This document shows positions 6,340 through 56,098 of a stretch of DNA of 64,000 nt, in pieces; position 1 is the first letter of the stretch; each line of letters starts with the position of its first letter. A model generated the notes under the pieces. That model was not told the origin of the DNA. It did not search any database and saw only the letters and a list, made by a program, of their open reading frames with translations. Source of the DNA: Mustelus asterias (Eukaryota); assembly GCF_964213995.1 (NCBI RefSeq), contig NW_027590140.1:372001-436000 (forward strand), given 5' to 3'. The translations under genes were made by a program, and so were the position numbers.

Positions 6340-7340
6340 TCCAATTTCGGTTCAGTTGCAAACCGACCTCCTTGCACAGGTCCTGCCGTCTCCCAGAACA
6401 GTTCCAGAGCTCTGGAAGTCTGAAGACCTCACTTCTGCACCTATTCTCCAGACGTGTATTCTTCTGAAGTAACCACCTATTTCTACACTCACTGACACGT
6501 GGCACCGGAGTAATCCAGAGATTACGAACTTCTGTTTTTTATTTTTTATTTGATCTACTTCTTGGCTCCCTGAACTCTGCTTGCAGGATTTCCTCGCTTG
6601 TTCCATTATTTAGTTGAAATCAATACTTACCACGGTTTCTGTATGCCATCTCCACCCCCTCCACCCTCCCCTACCCCCTCCACCTTCAGAAAAAGCTGCA
6701 GCCGTTTACTGACATTCTGACCCTGGCACTAGGGAGGCAGCACACCATCCCAGAAATGTTAAGTCTTTTCTCCATAGGATTGAATCCCTCCCTCTATAGC
6801 AATGCCATTTTCCTCCTCCCCTATTGTGCAGCAGACCCATGCATGTTGCCACGACGTTGACTTTCACTGCTTTCCCCGGCACAGTCAGCCTCCCTCCCGC
6901 TCCACCGCGAAAGAATCAGTAGAGCAGTCCCCCTCCCGCTCCCCGCCCCCCCCACCCCCCTCCCCCACCACCCCCACCGCCCCCCCCCCCCCCCGCCGCG
7001 AAAAGAACAGTAGCCAAAACGTTAAAGCTGCCAGATGACCACAGGCCAGTCCTGAACTACCTTCCTTCCTCTACTCCGCCTCGTGGTCACCCATGGGCTT
7101 TCTGCCTTTTCAACCTTCACCTGCGGTGTGGTCACTTTCGGAACGTGTTATCGACGACTTACTCAGCCATGGGGATGCCCACATTGAATCTTCTCAGCCT
7201 CAGCTTCGAAATGTGGTTAGCCAGTTGCTACGTTTGGACACACTCCCTGAACACCTGGTCACTAGTGAAACCTGAAACTTGCACTGTTGCCATATCGAAC
7301 AGTCGTAGGTGCAAGCTCTCCTGCCATGACTACCCTTAAG
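6340..7340 (-). mobile_element. Decayed CR1 ORF1 (SGNH esterase) region
   Basis: Minus-strand translations MVCCLPSARV, VISGLL, PRVSECRNR...GLQLNR align with the ORF1 esterase at 51222-51617. Confidence 0.7.
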
Positions 7341-47918: not shown

Positions 47919-48327
47919 TGAATCGACCTACAGAATCCCCAAGGTTCCTATCCCTTCCTCTCAATCATCAATTACATCATTCACATATTCCAAATCTTCG
48001 CTTCACCTCTCCCAAACATTCCGAACTCCTCTTACACAATTCACCTTTTTTTGTTCATAATAAACTAGCCTGGGGTGGGGGGAACAGCCTCTCAGCATGG
48101 ACACTGTCAAACTGTTTTCGAGTTTCAGACTTTTCAATAAGATCACCTCTGATTATTCTAAACTCCAGAGCGAACAGACTCATCCCGCTGAATCTCTCCT
48201 CCCAGGAGAAACGCAGAAATCAATTCAGTGAACCTCGGATGCACAGAGACATAGAACATAGAACAGTACAGCACAGAACAGGCCCTTCGGCCCACGATGT
48301 TGTGCCGAGCTTTATCTGAAACCAAGA

Positions 48328-51231
48328 TCAAGCTATCCCACTCCCTATCATCCTGGTGTGCTCCATGTGCCTATCCAATAACCGCTTAAATGTTTCTAAA
48401 GTGTCTGACTCCACTATCACTGCAGGCAGTCCATTCCACACCCCAACCACTCTCTGCGTAAAGAACCTACCTCTGATATCCGTCCTGTATCTCCCACCAC
48501 GAACCCTATAGTTATGCCCCCTTGTAATAGCTCCATCCACCCGAGGAAATAGTCTTTGAACGTTCACTCTATCTATCCCCTTCATCATTTTATACACCTC
48601 TATTAAGTCTCCCCTCAGCCTCCTCCGCTCCAGAGAGAACAGCCCTAGCTCCCTCAACCTTTCCTCATATGACCTACCCTCCAAACCAGGCAGCATCCTG
48701 GTAAATCTCCTCTGCACTCCTTCCAGCGCTTCCACATCCTTCCTATAGTGAGGTGACCAGAACTGCACACAATATTCCAAATGTGGTCTCACCAAGGTCC
48801 TGTACAGTTGCAGCATAACCCCACGGCTCTTAAACTCCAACCCCCTGTTAATAAAAGCTAACACACTATAGGCCTTCTTCACAGCTCTATCCACTTGACT
48901 GGCAACCTTTAGAGATCTGTGGATATGGACCCCAAGATCTCTCTGTTCCTCCACAGTCTTCAGAACCCTACCTTTGACCTTGTAATCCACATTTAAATTT
49001 GTCCTACCAAAATGAATCACCTCACATTTATCAGGGTTAAACTCCATTTGCCATTTTTCAGCCCAGCTTTGCATCCTATCTATGTCTCTTTGCAGCCTAC
49101 AACAGCCCTCCACCTCATCCACTACTCCACCAATCTTGGTGTCATCAGCAAATTTACTGATCCACCCTTCAGCCCCCTCCTCTAAGTCATTAATAAAAAT
49201 CACAAAGAGCAGAGGACCAAGCACTGATCCCTGCGGCACACCGCTAGCAACCTGCCTCCAATCCGAAAATTTTCCATCGACCACCACGCTCTGTCTTCGG
49301 TCAGACAGCCAGTTACCTATCCAATCGGCCAACTTTCCCTCTATCCCACACCTCCTCACTTTCATCATAAGCCGACCATGGGGGACCTTATCAAACGCCT
49401 TACTAAAATCCATGTATATGACATCAACTGCCCTACCTTCATCAACACACTTAGTTACCTCCTCAAAAAATTCTATCAAATTTGTGAGGCACGACTTGCC
49501 CTTCACGAATCCGTGCTGACTATCTCGGATTAATCCGCATCTTTCTAAATGGTCGTAAATCCCATCCCTAAGGACCCTTTCCATCAATTTACCAACCACC
49601 GAAGTAAGACTAACCGGTCTATAATTACCAGGGTCATTTCTAGTCCCTTTCTTAAACAGAGGAACAACATTCGCCATTCTCCAGTCCTCTGGCACCATCC
49701 CCGTGGACAGCGAGGACCCAAAGATCAACGCCAAAGGCTCTGCAATCTCATCCCTTGCCTCCCAAAGAATCCTAGGATACATTTCATCAGGCCCAGGGGA
49801 CTTATCGACCTTCAGTTTATTCAAAACTGCCAAGACATCCTCCCTCCGAACATCTATTTCCTCCAGCCTATTAGCCTGTAACACCTTCTCTTCCTCAAAA
49901 ACATGGCCCCTCTCCTTGGTGAACACTGAAGAAAAGTATTCATTCATCACCTCGCCTATCTCTACTGACTCCATACACAAGTTCCCACTACTGTCCTTGA
50001 CCGGCCCTAACCTCACCCTGGTCATTCTTTTATTCCTCACATAAGAGTAAAAAGCCTTGGGGTTTTCCTTGATCCGACCCGCCAAGGACTTCTCATGTCC
50101 CCTCCTAGCTCTCTTAAGCCCCTTTTTCAGCTCATTCCTTGCTAACTTGTAACCCTCAATCAAGCCATCTGAACCTTGTTTCCTCATCCCTACATAAGCT
50201 TCCCTCTTCCTTTTCACAAGACATTCCACCTCTTTTGTGAACCATGGTTCCCTCACTCGGCCATTTCCTCCCTGCCTGACAGGAACATACCTATCAAGGA
50301 CATCCAGTATTTGTTCCTTGAAAAAATTCCACTTTTCATTAGTTCCTTTCTCTGACAGTTTCTGGTCCCAACTTATGCCCCCTAATTCTTGCCTAATCGC
50401 ATCATAATTGCCCCTCCCCCAATTGTAAACCTTGCCCTGCCGTACGGCCCTATCCCTCTCCATTGCAATAACAAAAGACACCGAATTGTGGTCACTATCT
50501 CCAAATTGCTCTCCCACAACCAAATCTAACACTTGGCCCGGTTCATTTCCCAGTACCAAATCCAATGTGGCCTCACCTCTAGTCGGCCCATCCACATATT
50601 GTGTCAGGAAACCCTCCCGCACACACTGCACAAAAACTGCCCCATCCAAACTATTTGACCTACAAAGGTTCCAATCAATATTTGGAAAGTTAAAGTCCCC
50701 CATGACAACTACCCTGTGACCCCCACACATATCCATAATCTGCTTAGCAATTTCTTCCTCCACATCTCTATTACTATTTGGGGGCCTATAGTAAACTCCT
50801 AGCAACGTGACCGCTCCTTTCCTATTTCTAACTTCAGCCCATATTACCTCAGTGTGCAGATCCCCCACGAAGTGCCTTTCCGCAGCCGTTAAACTATCCT
50901 TGATTAACAATGCCACTCCTCCACCTCTTTTACCAGCTTCCCTACACTTAGTGAAACATCTATACCCCGGAACGTCCAACAACCATTCCTGTCCTTGTTC
51001 TACCCACGTCTCCGTAATGGCCACAACATCGTAGTCCCAAGTACCAATCCACGCCCCAAGTTCATCTACCTTGTTCCGGATGCTCCTTGCATTGAAGTAG
51101 ACACACTTCAACCCACCTTCCTGTCTACCAGTACCCACCCTTGACCCTGATACCTTCCCCAATACCTCACCACCCTCACTGACTTCTGGACTACAACTCC
51201 CTTTCCCACTCCCCTGACAATTTAGTTTAAA
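48328..51231 (-). CDS. CR1 ORF2: APE endonuclease + reverse transcriptase, uninterrupted
   Basis: YFNARSI, AITETW, MGDFN, LDLV, SDH (EN); [33 protein letters not shown] (RT). No ATG before the EN domain; start placed at the proposed slip site. Confidence 0.93.
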   Translation of the reverse strand, partial: FKLNCQGSGKGSCSPEVSEGGEVLGKVSGSRVGTGRQEGGLKCVYFNARSIRNKVDELGAWIGTWDYDVVAITETWVEQGQEWLLDVPGYRCFTKCREAGKRGGGVALLIKDSLTAAERHFVGDLHTEVIWAEVRNRKGAVTLLGVYYRPPNSNRDVEEEIAKQIMDMCGGHRVVVMGDFNFPNIDWNLCRSNSLDGAVFVQCVREGFLTQYVDGPTRGEATLDLVLGNEPGQVLDLVVGEQFGDSDHNSVSFVIAMERDRAVRQGKVYNWGRGNYDAIRQELGGISWDQKLSEKGTNEKWNFFKEQILDVLDRYVPVRQGGNGRVREPWFTKEVECLVKRKREAYVGMRKQGSDGLIEGYKLARNELKKGLKRARRGHEKSLAGRIKENPKAFYSYVRNKRMTRVRLGPVKDSSGNLCMESVEIGEVMNEYFSSVFTKERGHVFEEEKVLQANRLEEIDVRREDVLAVLNKLKVDKSPGPDEMYPRILWEARDEIAEPLALIFGSSLSTGMVPEDWRMANVVPLFKKGTRNDPGNYRPVSLTSVVGKLMERVLRDGIYDHLERCGLIRDSQHGFVKGKSCLTNLIEFFEEVTKCVDEGRAVDVIYMDFSKAFDKVPHGRLMMKVRRCGIEGKLADWIGNWLSDRRQSVVVDGKFSDWRQVASGVPQGSVLGPLLFVIFINDLEEGAEGWISKFADDTKIGGVVDEVEGCCRLQRDIDRMQSWAEKWQMEFNPDKCEVIHFGRTNLNVDYKVKGRVLKTVEEQRDLGVHIHRSLKVASQVDRAVKKAYSVLAFINRGLEFKSRGVMLQLYRTLVRPHLEYCVQFWSPHYRKDVEALEGVQRRFTRMLPGLEGRSYEERLRELGLFSLERRRLRGDLIEVYKMMKGIDRVNVQRLFPRVDGAITRGHNYRVRGGRYRTDIRGRFFTQRVVGVWNGLPAVIVESDTLETFKRLLDRHMEHTRMIGSGIA

Positions 51232-51617
51232 CCCCCCTGAAGAGCCGTAACAAATTTCCCTCCGAGGATATTGGTGCCCCTCTGGTTCAGGTGCACCCCG
51301 TCCTGTTTGTACAGGTCCCACCTTCCCCAGAACGTGTTCCAATTATCCACGTATCTGAAACCCTCCCTCCTACACCATCCCTGCAACCACATATTTAACT
51401 GCACTCTCTCCCTGTTCCTCAACTCGCTATCACGTGGTACCGGCAACGTACCAGAGATGACCACATGTTTCGTCTTGGCTCTCAGCTTCCAGCCCAGCTC
51501 CAGAAATTCCTGCTTTAAATCCCCGTCCCTTCTCTTACCTATGTCATTGGTACCAATGTGCACCACGACTTGTGACTGTTTCCCCTCCCCCTTCAGAATC
51601 TGGAAAACACGGTCTGA
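51222..51617 (-). CDS. CR1 ORF1 C-terminal SGNH esterase domain (5'-truncated)
   Basis: VVVHIGTND...DGVHLN motifs; ends QGGLN*. Confidence 0.9.
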   Translation of the reverse strand, partial: SDRVFQILKGEGKQSQVVVHIGTNDIGKRRDGDLKQEFLELGWKLRAKTKHVVISGTLPVPRDSELRNRERVQLNMWLQGWCRREGFRYVDNWNTFWGRWDLYKQDGVHLNQRGTNILGGKFVTALQGGLN

Positions 51618-52022
51618 GAATGAATGAAGACTGCAAGGATCAAAATCGGTCAACGTAATAAAAACACAGTCAGAGACACTGACAGATTCTGAGGGAGATA
51701 TATAGAGACAATGAAAAACAGAAATAGCGAGTGAGGTACACATCCACAACCCATGAATGAATAACAATATACACACAGCCAGCTGCCTGAACCAACAAAC
51801 ATGGGGTCCTCTAAACTGGTGACCAGAGATCAAGTGAATGGCCACAAGCATATTCACCTTTTAATGTCTTGATTTTCTTGTGTGTGTTGTGTTGATAGAT
51901 TGCCTGCTCTGTGTGCTCAGGTTCTCAAACCAAATCCCACGTAAACCAATCCCACCGTTTGCACTGCAAATACATTTACAAAACCTTTGACTTTTCCAAT
52001 ACGAAATGACAGCTGAATGAGA

Positions 52023-52881: not shown

Positions 52882-54282
52882 TTGTGAGGCACGACTTGCC
52901 CTTCACAGATTCGTGAAGGGCAAGTCGTGCCTCACAAATTTGATTGAATTCTTTGAGGAGGTAACTAAGTGTGTTGATGAAGGTAGGGCAGTTGATGTCA
53001 TATACATGGATTTTAGTAAGGCGTTTGATAAGGTCCCCCATGGTCTGCTTATGATGAAAGTGAGGAGGTGTGGGATAGAGGGAAAGTTGGCCGATTGGAT
53101 AGGTAACTGGCTGTCTGATCGAAGACAGAGGGTGGTGGTGGATGGAAATGTTTCGGATTGGAGGCAGGTTGCCAGCGGAGTGCCACAGGGATCAGTGCTT
53201 GGTCCTCTACTCTTTGTGATTTTTATTAATGACTTAGAGGAGGGGGCTGAAGGGTGGATCAGTAAATTTGCTGATGACACCAAGAATGGTGGAGTAGTGG
53301 ATGAAATCATAGAAATCGTAGAAACCCTAGAGTGCAGAAAGAGGCCATTCGGCTCATCGAGTCTGCACCGACCACAATCCCACCCAGGCCCCACTCCTAT
53401 ATCCCTACACGTTTACCCGCCAAGGTGTTGTAGGCTGCAAGAGACATAGATAGGATGTAAAGTGGGCTGAAAAATGGCAAATGGAGTTTAACCCTGATAA
53501 ATGTGAGGTGATTCATTTTGGTCGGACAAATTTAAATGTGGATTACAGGTTCAAAGGTAGGGTTCTGAAGACTGTGGAGGAACAGAGAGATCTTGGGGTC
53601 CATATCCACAGATCTCTAAAGGTTGCCACTCAAGTGGATAGAACTGTGAAGAAGGCCTATAGTGTGTTAGCTTTTATTAACAGGAGGTTGGAGTTTAAGA
53701 GCCGTGGGGTCATGCTGCAACTGTACAGGACCTTGGTGAGACCACACTTGGAATATTGTGTGCAGTTCTGGTCACCTCACTATAAGAAGGATGTGGAAGC
53801 GCTGGAAAGAGTGCAGAGGAGATTTACCAGGATGCTGCCTGGTTTGGAGGGTAGGTCTTATGAGGAAAGGTTGAGGGAGCTAGGGCTGTTCTCTCTGGAG
53901 CGGAGGAGGCTGAGGGGAGACCTAATAGAGGTTTATATAATGATGAAGGGGATAGATAGAGTGAACGTTCAAAGACTATTTCCTCGGGTGGGTGGAGCTA
54001 TTACAAGGGGGCATAACTATAGGGTTCGTGGTGGGAGATATAGGAAGGATATCAGAGGTAGGTTCTTTACGCAGAGAGTGGTTGGGGTGTGGAATGGACT
54101 GCCTGCAGTGATAGTGGAGTCAGACACTTTAGGAACATTTAAGCGGTTATTGGATAGGCACAATGAGCACACCAGGATGATAGGGAGTGGGATAGCTTGA
54201 TCTTGGTTTCAGATAAAGCTCGGCACAACATCGTGGACCGAAGGACCTGTTCTGTGCTGTACTGTTCTAATTTCTAGTTCTA
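52882..54282 (+). mobile_element. 5'-truncated CR1, same subfamily as the 48.2-51.6 kb copy, with 5' hairpin and a nested tail insertion
   Basis: ORFs 52814-53449 and 53481-54200 are nearly identical to the C-terminal part of ORF2 at 48328. Confidence 0.95.
53305..53421 (-). mobile_element. Short SINE/CR1 3'-tail insertion inside the CR1
   Basis: ATCATAGAAATCGTAGAAACCC...CATCGAGTCTGCACCGACC interrupts the frame after GGVVDE. Confidence 0.8.
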
Positions 54283-56098
54283 AAAATTCCAGCATGTTGT
54301 GGGACTATTTTACCTCAGTGTCGATTTCATGTCCCAGCGAACTCAATCGGTGTTGTCATTAGCTGAAGCAGTCCATGTTCCATCCAAACTGGACATATTA
54401 AGTGATGTACGGTAAGTCAATTTGAAAAACACATTTCACCCGTGACCCTGGTTGTCCAGGGAGTTGTGTTCAGTCCCACCCCAGTGTTGTTTGGTTTCAA
54501 TTCCCGCTCAGGAAACAATTATTTATTGTTCTCGGCAAACTATTAAAAATAACCTGATTTGCTATCTGATCAAAAGCAGATCTACTAAAATCAGCCGAGT
54601 GAGGTTTGCAAGTCTCCATCACAGCTGGAAATGTCACATGTGCAACAAGTCAAGAACAAATATAGGAGCAGAAAGACAGTGATAGGCTGCAAAGCGCTGA
54701 CGACAGAGATGGTGATGTAAGGTAACATCTGGAAGGTAAATCGGTCAGATTTTAGCGTTCACACTGAATTATTAAACCTTTCCCTCACTCTGCAACAACA
54801 ATGTTTGAAAACGTTTCTGCCCAGTTTTGAACCGTCGGAAGCGAAAGTAATAACTGTGTGTGGAATGTCTGTTGTCTGTTATAATGGACTGAATATATCA
54901 CTGTGGTGGAAACAGAAGGTGCCATTTTGCGATAGAGACTTACTTGTGGTGAATCATCCAAACCATAAAAACAAATGTCAGTTATTGCCTGGTGGAACAT
55001 ATAAAACACAATCTCTCCTCGTGTCCTGAGGTGAAGACTGAGCAAATCCAACAGGACGTTTTCATGTCATATCTGGCAGTATATTGGGAACCAGACAAGG
55101 TTAAGGACAGTTTAAATGGTGCTGGTCCTTCACTGCAGCTGATTCTGTTTCTGACTGGATGTGATTTCTGTTTGTTACAGAGTTCAGGATGAATTGATTC
55201 AGTGAAGGAGCAGGCTCAAACCGACTGATGGCCTTTCTCAGCTCCTTTGCTGCTACTAAATTTCATTAACGTTTTCAGTAAAGAGCAGGATGGTCATGGG
55301 GTAGCGTGACGGAGCAGTTTAAACCAGCAGTTAGGTCCCATCTCTGTCTCAGCTGTGGGTTCAAATCCCGCCATTGCGAGAGTGGGCTTGAGTTTTGGTC
55401 TGTGCAGCTGAAATCCAGCAGTTCAGATTGAATGCAGGAGTTTCTGCCGTGTCGTTTTTGTCAGGAAGAAAGCGGAGACACTGACCAATGTAAACAGTTG
55501 TTGAGGTAAAGAAGCGCATGTGGAAGGAGTGGAGCAAATTATTGTAGATGCTGGAATCGGAAACAAAAAGGGAAAATGCTGGAAAATCTCATCAAGTCTG
55601 GCAGCATCTATTATGAGAGAAGAGAGCTGATGTTTCGAGTCCAGATCACCCTTTGTCAAAACTGGAAGGAATTGAGTTGCTCCGACAGAGAATACAAACG
55701 GGAACACAGGCTGAATGGCTATCTGCCGATATAACCACAGGATTGCAAACATTGAGACTGCAGTCCCGGCCCAGGGGTAGATTGGGATTTTTAAACTGAG
55801 GCTCAAATCCTGTCATGTCCGCTTCCCGTCGTTCCTTATTTTTATTGAAAGTTATTGGAAATGAAGCAATGGGTACAGAGATGATCAACTCACTGAAAAT
55901 CTCTCACATCAGCGTCTCTGAGGGTCTAGTGACCAGAATCGGCGCCGTGACGTCGTTTCAATCCCCAGTCACGGAGTGAATAACTTTTTGTTCAATTCTT
56001 CATTTAATGAAAACACGCCTCAGAGCGTCTGTGAAGGGAGCAATGTCTAAATCTTCCAGCTGAATGAACTTGCATCGGAGTTGGAAACGTCAGAGATG

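What the first reader, a model, noticed from the sequence alone, without database searches (positions are those of the whole stretch)
51195..51240. In-phase U_UUA_AAC slippery heptamer joins CR1 ORF1 to an ATG-less ORF2: candidate programmed -1 frameshift
Seen (minus strand): ORF1 ends CAG GGG GGT TTA AAC TAA. ORF2 is open in the -1 frame across this point (GGG TTT AAA CTA AAT TGT) and has no Met until well inside the endonuclease domain. The heptamer (51225-51231) is in the X_XXY_YYZ phase and is followed by a G-rich tract (CAGGGGAGTGGGAAAGGGAG). Known: UUUAAAC is the coronavirus -1 slip site, whereas the studied LINEs (L1, SART1) use termination-reinitiation. Inference: this LINE may make an ORF1-ORF2 fusion in a gag-pol-like way.
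Basis: partly seen in the sequence, partly recalled or inferred. Interest (0 to 1): 0.72.

Follow-up and report, generated by a model that had tools for sequence, protein, structure and literature searches.

The report
Ribosome slip site in CR1 LINEs
An abundant vertebrate jumping gene (a CR1 LINE) ends its first gene on a seven-letter slippery sequence kept by all eight sister families examined, and its second gene continues one base back with no start codon ahead of the enzyme, so ribosomes likely slip back one base to make a fused protein, as retroviruses do.

Summary
Observation confirmed. A young, 5'-truncated CR1 LINE (51619-48249, minus strand) ends its esterase ORF1 with TTA AAC TAA. 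ORF2 (967 codons) is open in the -1 frame, and its first ATG lies mid-endonuclease. The signal is conserved. All 8 CR1 families sampled from this shark-like genome (ORF1 tails 37-76% identical) keep T TTA AAC + stop, while only 1 of 12 other invariant degenerate codons is fixed. Linker lengths differ but always keep the -1 frame. Published CR1 consensuses from crocodilians, a frog, bony fish and cartilaginous fish carry the same site. Three distant metagenome relatives use G_GGA_AAC, another classic slip site. No start codon is shared, although 2 of 8 families have TAATG and one has a later ATG. No stem-loop was found, only a conserved G-tract. Best reading: programmed -1 frameshift giving an ORF1-ORF2 fusion (about 0.8, untested). 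I did not find it described for CR1 in ten paper searches. A -1 shift is stated for Dictyostelium TRE5-A/TRE3-A. This scan noted the same feature before in other genomes.

The parts
48249..51619 (-). 5'-truncated copy of a young esterase-type CR1 LINE
   Evidence: 99.2% identical over 3372 nt to a family copy that has a complete ORF1; loose ends at 51619; 1314 first-look candidates in the genome
51222..51619 (-). C-terminal remnant of ORF1 (SGNH/GDSL esterase); the full family ORF1 is 308 aa
   Evidence: Pfam PF13472 E=2.8e-12; P0022; tblastn to residues 172-308
51225..51231 (-). U_UUA_AAC slippery heptamer in ORF1 phase (codons Leu-Asn)
   Evidence: sequence; 8 of 8 family representatives; 114 of 128 anchored places
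51228..51234 (-). overlapping second canonical heptamer G_GGU_UUA, one codon upstream
   Evidence: present in 6 of 8 representatives (codon columns)
51222..51224 (-). ORF1 stop codon directly after the heptamer (TAA or TAG, so the -1 frame reads CTA)
51197..51216 (-). G-rich tract; the first GGGG starts 9-13 nt after the heptamer in the 11 loci measured; candidate stimulator, no stable fold
51099..51221 (-). variable linker between the slip site and the endonuclease, frame-preserving across families
   Evidence: stop-to-anchor distances 116, 128, 137, 140, 167, 182, 218, 233 nt, all in the -1 frame
48328..51231 (-). ORF2 in the -1 frame: APE endonuclease + reverse transcriptase, 967 codons from TTT; first ATG at 50736-50734
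   Evidence: Pfam PF03372 and PF00078
48249..48327 (-). 3' UTR ending in short TTCTATG repeats, no poly(A)
   Evidence: sequence; element end

Best explanation
The site is likely a programmed -1 ribosomal frameshift that would join the CR1 ORF1 protein to the endonuclease-reverse transcriptase, much as gag is joined to pol. Shown: an in-phase heptamer plus stop, a -1 frame open from the heptamer, no start codon shared among families, and codon-level conservation. Inferred: most ribosomes stop at the TAA and release the 308-aa ORF1 protein. A minority with tRNA-Leu on UUA and tRNA-Asn on AAC re-pair on UUU and AAA, pass over the stop (now read as CUA) and make a fusion of about 1270 aa. The stimulator is the weakest step: possibly pausing at the adjacent stop plus the G-tract, rather than a local stem-loop. 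This copy lacks the ORF1 start and is a relic carrying the family signal.
For: (1) 8 of 8 family representatives (last 59 ORF1 codons 37-76% identical; mean synonymous identity 0.58) have T TTA AAC + TAR. TTA is 18 of 155 Leu codons and AAC 30 of 65 Asn codons in these ORF1s, and 1 of 12 other invariant degenerate columns has a fixed codon. (2) Linker lengths differ in all 8 families yet keep the -1 frame. In four families the ORF2 frame is shut by a stop 22 nt before the ORF1 stop, and in family E 10 nt before it, so entry must be at or after the slip site. A second family has copies open for 1006 codons from the site. (3) The ORF2-frame codon overlapping the stop is ATT, ATA, ATG, ATG, GAA/GTA, GAG, GAT or GTT, so no initiator is shared. 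(4) By my reading, 17 of 23 TTTAAACTA hits in the visible 400 nt of published consensuses are ORF1 ends (PMC13343379 supplement). (5) Distant relatives use another known shifty heptamer: L131 G_GGA_AAC TAG with EN and RT in -1, L132 the same site, L134 one codon before its stop (heptamer list in PMC5009743). (6) Of 84 ORF1 tails among 50%-cluster representatives, 44 end LN and 9 end GN. The residue before LN can end in T in 43 of 44 (p=0.006, rows not independent), and all 9 GN follow Gln. (7) In the AlphaFold model the last helix ends at residue 302, before Leu307-Asn308.
Against: No translation data. No stable local structure downstream (z from -0.8 to +1.5 in 5 copies of 4 families) and no conserved long-range partner. 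Families B and G have TAATG, the SART1-type stop-start. Family E has an in-frame ATG 137 nt after the stop, and L131 has Met just before its endonuclease. 7 of 8 representatives have an ATG or near-cognate codon within 6 codons of the site. Families share ancestry, G and H are single copies, and the B and C representatives are broken downstream. 27 of 84 homologous ORF1 tails do not end in Asn, and L136 has ORF2 in +1 without a heptamer. L1 and SART1 use reinitiation (PMC2881922, PMC3708506).
Confidence: 0.8

Rival explanations
1. Termination-reinitiation, as in SART1 and L1: ribosomes stop at ORF1 and restart ORF2 at an AUG or near-cognate codon at or just after the stop.
For: TAATG in families B and G, ATT/ATA overlapping the stop in A and C, TTG/ATT within 5 codons in D, E and F. 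It is the established route for L1 and SART1. It also explains the frame-preserving linker.
Against: The overlapping codon is GAA/GTA, GAG, GAT or GTT in 4 of 8 families and the position of candidate starts is not fixed. It does not explain the fixed T TTA AAC codons or the switch to G GGA AAC.
Confidence: 0.13
2. The motif is conserved for another reason, such as a C-terminal Leu-Asn protein need or an RNA/DNA element like a branch point plus acceptor (CTAAT...CAG), and ORF2 comes from a spliced or separate RNA.
For: Terminal Asn is invariant in 35 of 35 aligned ORF1s; CTAAT and CAG are present in family A.
Against: A protein need would not fix the codons or the preceding base. CAG is missing in families D and E, and CTAAT lies only about 8 nt from it. 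A 1757-nt contig from a run guessed to be RNA crosses the junction without a gap (weak, contigs only). Leu-Asn lies beyond the last helix in the model.
Confidence: 0.05
3. Chance or inherited relic with no current function.
For: Canonical heptamers occur at about 0.6% of codons; the families share ancestry.
Against: Neighbouring synonymous sites are largely scrambled while these seven bases are not, and the site is present in a very young family (copies about 99% identical).
Confidence: 0.02

Closest known systems
Esterase-ORF1 (canonical vertebrate) CR1 LINEs (PMC13343379; PMC4120745)
   Same: SGNH esterase ORF1, APE+RT ORF2, short repeat tail; published consensuses carry the same junction
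   Different: Term searches of these two main texts found no 'frameshift' or 'overlap', so I found no statement there of how ORF2 is translated
Dictyostelium TRE5-A and TRE3-A
   Same: APE-type non-LTR elements said in a review figure legend to require a -1 frameshift for ORF2 (PMC5911963)
   Different: Unrelated ORF1 and a different host. The primary papers were not read, so the strength of that evidence and the slip site were not checked
Viral and retroviral -1 frameshift sites (U_UUA_AAC, G_GGA_AAC)
   Same: Both heptamers are listed among the most shifty in mammalian ribosomes, and IBV uses U_UUA_AAC (PMC5009743); same short-ORF / fused-polymerase logic
   Different: No pseudoknot or stem-loop was found; the stop follows at once, then a G-tract; the element is a non-LTR retrotransposon
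SART1 (UAAUG stop-start) and human L1 (AUG-independent initiation)
   Same: Bicistronic LINE RNA with ORF2 starting at the end of ORF1; TAATG occurs in 2 of 8 families
   Different: They make a separate ORF2 protein by reinitiation; here no start codon is shared and a slip site is conserved

Membership tests
Canonical vertebrate CR1 LINE | ORF2 with APE endonuclease and RT | tested here: met
   PF03372 and PF00078
Canonical vertebrate CR1 LINE | Esterase-type ORF1 | tested here: met
   PF13472; homologues named from sharks, rays, snake, turtles and anole
Canonical vertebrate CR1 LINE | Short repeat tail instead of poly(A) | tested here: met
   TTCTATG repeats at the 3' end
Canonical vertebrate CR1 LINE | RT groups in the CR1 clade in a tree | not tested
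   No RT tree built; assignment rests on architecture and on junction likeness to rows labelled CR1
Programmed -1 ribosomal frameshift | X_XXY_YYZ heptamer in the upstream ORF's phase | tested here: met
Programmed -1 ribosomal frameshift | Downstream ORF open in -1 from the site | tested here: met
   967 codons here; 1006 in family E
Programmed -1 ribosomal frameshift | Conservation beyond amino-acid need, with exchange between shifty heptamers | tested here: met
Programmed -1 ribosomal frameshift | 3' stimulatory structure a few nt downstream | tested here: inconclusive
   No stem-loop above shuffles and no conserved long-range helix; pseudoknots were not modelled; a conserved G-tract sits 9-13 nt downstream
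Programmed -1 ribosomal frameshift | Transframe product measured | not testable with these tools
   Needs a reporter, ribosome profiling or mass spectrometry
SART1-type UAAUG termination-reinitiation | AUG overlapping the ORF1 stop | tested here: not met
   Absent in this family (TAATT/TAAAT); present in 2 of 8 representatives

The most novel reading that the evidence does not exclude
Esterase-type CR1 elements, the dominant retrotransposon of most vertebrates, have made their polymerase as a gag-pol-like ORF1-ORF2 fusion by -1 frameshifting since before sharks and tetrapods split. The shift is driven by a stop codon plus a G-tract rather than a folded stimulator. Distant relatives reach the same fusion with G_GGA_AAC or, in L2-like elements, by UGA-CUA readthrough, so recoding would be a main route of LINE ORF2 expression.
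Probability: 0.55. Interest if true: 0.88.

Novelty: new variant of a known kind. Interest (0 to 1): 0.72.

Why it matters
How LINEs translate ORF2 is an open question, answered so far only for L1 and SART1 (reinitiation). A conserved -1 slip site makes a short, direct test for the CR1 group, reported to cover 22-34% of shark and ray genomes (PMC13343379). If true, the reverse transcriptase would be tethered to the esterase ORF1, whose zebrafish counterpart dimerises and binds lipids (PMC3905857). The ORF1:ORF2 ratio would be set as in retroviruses, CR1 ORF2 annotations that start at an internal Met would be wrong, and the G-tract could be a natural unstructured or G-quadruplex stimulator, which the 2016 review says was not known.

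Tried and rejected
Local folding of 60-150 nt downstream in 5 copies of 4 families: no signal; G-quadruplex mode picked only weak two-tier or distal quadruplexes. Long-range pairing of the G-tract: the one recurrent partner (7 of 11 loci) is the C-rich codons of the conserved KSPGPD motif, without consistent pairing, so rejected. Viral-contig scans found nothing. The broad alignments were too diverse for the larger collections, so the one metagenome scan used invertebrate-like ORF1s only and no tetrapod DNA was fetched; genome contigs was not scanned. Of 21 metagenome loci, only 4 had an APE domain visible after the stop (L131, L135, L136, L150); most others had no ORF2 next to them or ended at the contig edge. 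No RNA holder is on record, and contigs cannot show expression. Supplement searches for other heptamers or TGACTAG gave no junction-level hits in the rows shown (not all places viewed). Kojima 2005 and Alisch 2006 were not held; Haas 1997/2001 and Kajikawa 1997, the first full-length CR1 descriptions, were not read and may mention the overlap.

Full report
Observation. The window's minus strand holds TTTAAAC at 51231-51225 followed by TAA at 51224-51222. It closes a frame that matches the SGNH/GDSL esterase family. The -1 frame is open from 51342 to 48328 and encodes an APE endonuclease and a reverse transcriptase. Its first ATG is 488 nt past the stop, at codon 166, inside the endonuclease match. 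The element spans 51619-48249, is 99.2% identical to a copy with a complete ORF1, and has lost the first ~170 ORF1 codons. The genome is 3.68 Gb. The closest named vertebrate ORF1 homologues are from sharks and rays, so the host is inferred to be a cartilaginous fish. The family is young: 30 of 30 fetched copies have the same junction and 29 differ from the window at one base in 321. They count as one observation. The full ORF1 is 308 aa.

Sister families. Searching the genome with divergent ORF1 proteins gave 152 loci and 143 distinct places; at least one duplicate remained. Of these, 128 could be anchored on the DGxH motif and fell into 8 clusters; 15 had no anchor and were dropped. TTTAAAC lay at the expected position in 114 of 128; the rest were decayed, shifted by an indel or mis-anchored. 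The queries carried the terminal residues, which can favour Leu-Asn but not particular codons. One real copy per family was compared. The last 59 codons are 37-76% identical in protein, and identical residues share a codon 58% of the time. Of 12 invariant degenerate columns outside the site, 1 has a single codon. At the site all 8 have T TTA AAC and TAA or TAG, although TTA is only 18 of 155 Leu codons and the residue before Leu varies (Gly, Ser, Thr). The modal distance from stop to endonuclease anchor is 116, 128, 137, 140, 167, 182, 218 or 233 nt, always in the -1 frame. In families C, D, F and G the ORF2 frame is usually closed 22 nt upstream of the stop, and in E it opens one codon before TTT. 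Two E copies are open for 1006 codons from the site. Families G and H are single copies, and the B and C representatives are broken downstream.

Start codons. The ORF2-frame codon overlapping the stop is ATT (A; AAT in the window), ATA (C), ATG (B and G; ACG in two B-type copies), GAA/GTA (D), GAG (E), GAT (F) or GTT (H). An ATG precedes the endonuclease in 3 of 8 families (B and G at the stop, E at +137) and in L131. It does not in A, D and F, in most C copies checked, or before the premature stop in H. Near-cognate codons lie close to the site in 7 of 8, at differing positions. Reinitiation therefore cannot be excluded for single families, but it gives no common rule.

Other animals. Profile search found 7035 relatives. 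Among the best representatives, 84 of 148 had a short tail after DGxH: 44 end Leu-Asn, 9 Gly-Asn, and 57 end in Asn. The residue before Leu-Asn is one that can end in T in 43 of 44, and all 9 Gly-Asn follow Gln, as U_UUA_AAC and G_GGA_AAC would require. Named members ending ALN/TLN come from a snake, snapping turtles and an anole; one ending VSN comes from a sea cucumber. The metagenome scan returned 21 loci. L131 ends CAG GGA AAC TAG with endonuclease and RT in the -1 frame. L132 ends GCG GGA AAC TAG and L134 has G GGA AAC one codon before its stop; both contigs end right after. L136 has ORF2 in +1 with no heptamer, and L135 and L150 have it in frame behind TGA CTA. In Supplementary Table 2 of PMC13343379, where only the first 400 letters of each row are visible, TTTAAACTA occurs 23 times. 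By my reading 17 are ORF1 ends, in rows coded AllMis, CroPor, AquCat, AmiCal, LatCha, CalMil, AldAff, HypSab, PriPec, ScyCan and SquAca. I read these codes from memory as alligator, crocodile, bullfrog, bowfin, coelacanth, elephant shark, a teleost, rays and sharks. An independent search on DGxH codons hit 6 rows; the 5 that show the junction all have the heptamer, and all 5 are among the 17. No full denominator could be had.

Stimulator. Folding 60-150 nt downstream gave z-scores from -0.8 to +1.5. A GGGG run begins 9-13 nt after the heptamer in 11 of 11 loci measured, including L131, and a G-run shows in most of the crocodilian rows. No conserved long-range partner was found. The tract could be coding (Gly-x-Gly), a protein-binding site or a weak quadruplex; this is unresolved. 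The ORF1 model (mean pLDDT 66) puts the last helix at 289-302, leaving Leu-Asn outside it. One contig from a run only guessed to be RNA crosses the junction without a gap.

Mechanism. Shown: site, phase, frame, conservation and exchange of heptamer. Inferred: tandem slippage of tRNA-Leu and tRNA-Asn, a fusion of 308 + 965 residues, and ORF1 excess set by the slip rate. Speculative: stimulation by the adjacent stop and the G-tract. Confidence 0.8; reinitiation 0.13.

Literature. Ten searches found no paper proposing frameshifting for CR1; the library lacks most subscription papers. Seen as passages only: PMC5009743 (shifty heptamers; LINE ORF2 by unusual initiation; no natural G-quadruplex stimulator known; first 300,000 characters held); PMC3708506 and PMC2881922 (SART1 and L1 reinitiation); PMC5911963 (TRE5-A and TRE3-A said to need a -1 shift); PMC13343379 (and supplement rows); and PMC3905857, PMC4120745, PMC5006619, PMC2734521, PMC11835228. 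The original CR1 papers were not seen. Six earlier notes of this scan report the same kind of junction in other genomes; they are not counted as evidence.

Verdict. A real, deeply conserved recoding-type signal in a known transposon family, most likely a programmed -1 frameshift. It is a new variant of a known kind and can be tested with a short reporter.

Noticed in passing
L135 (ORF1 match 464-1315) and L150 (555-1310), metagenome loci: Esterase ORF1 ends in TGA CTA and an APE-like frame continues in the same frame without a nearby stop. UGA-CUA is recalled as a readthrough context, so these L2-like elements may fuse ORF1 and ORF2 by readthrough.
   Followed up: partly
L136 (ORF1 match 409-900): ORF1 ends GTT TAG C, with endonuclease and RT in the +1 frame, open across the stop; no -1 heptamer.
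   Followed up: no
window 10876-60610: 12 tRNA or tRNA-like genes (Asn, Ile, Cys, Lys, Thr, Leu). A Cys-Lys-Thr series recurs at ~16.4-23.3 kb and ~34.5-42.7 kb, suggesting a duplicated tRNA cluster.
   Followed up: no
window 52904-54283 (+): A second, shorter and rearranged copy of the same CR1 family in opposite orientation, about 96% identical.
   Followed up: no
window 6347-6748 (-): A diverged esterase ORF1 remnant, 34% identical, from another LINE family.
   Followed up: no
L091-L110 and L061-L090, G-run after the stop: The G-run varies by one base in some copies and throws ORF2 out of frame; the commonest length keeps the -1 frame.
   Followed up: partly
L002 and L011, 5' of ORF1: The family 5' UTR contains tandemly repeated blocks of variable copy number.
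   Followed up: no
P0006, P0029: Shark-like CR1 ORF1 proteins are deposited under bacterial names (Proteus, Pseudomonas), probably host contamination.
   Followed up: no
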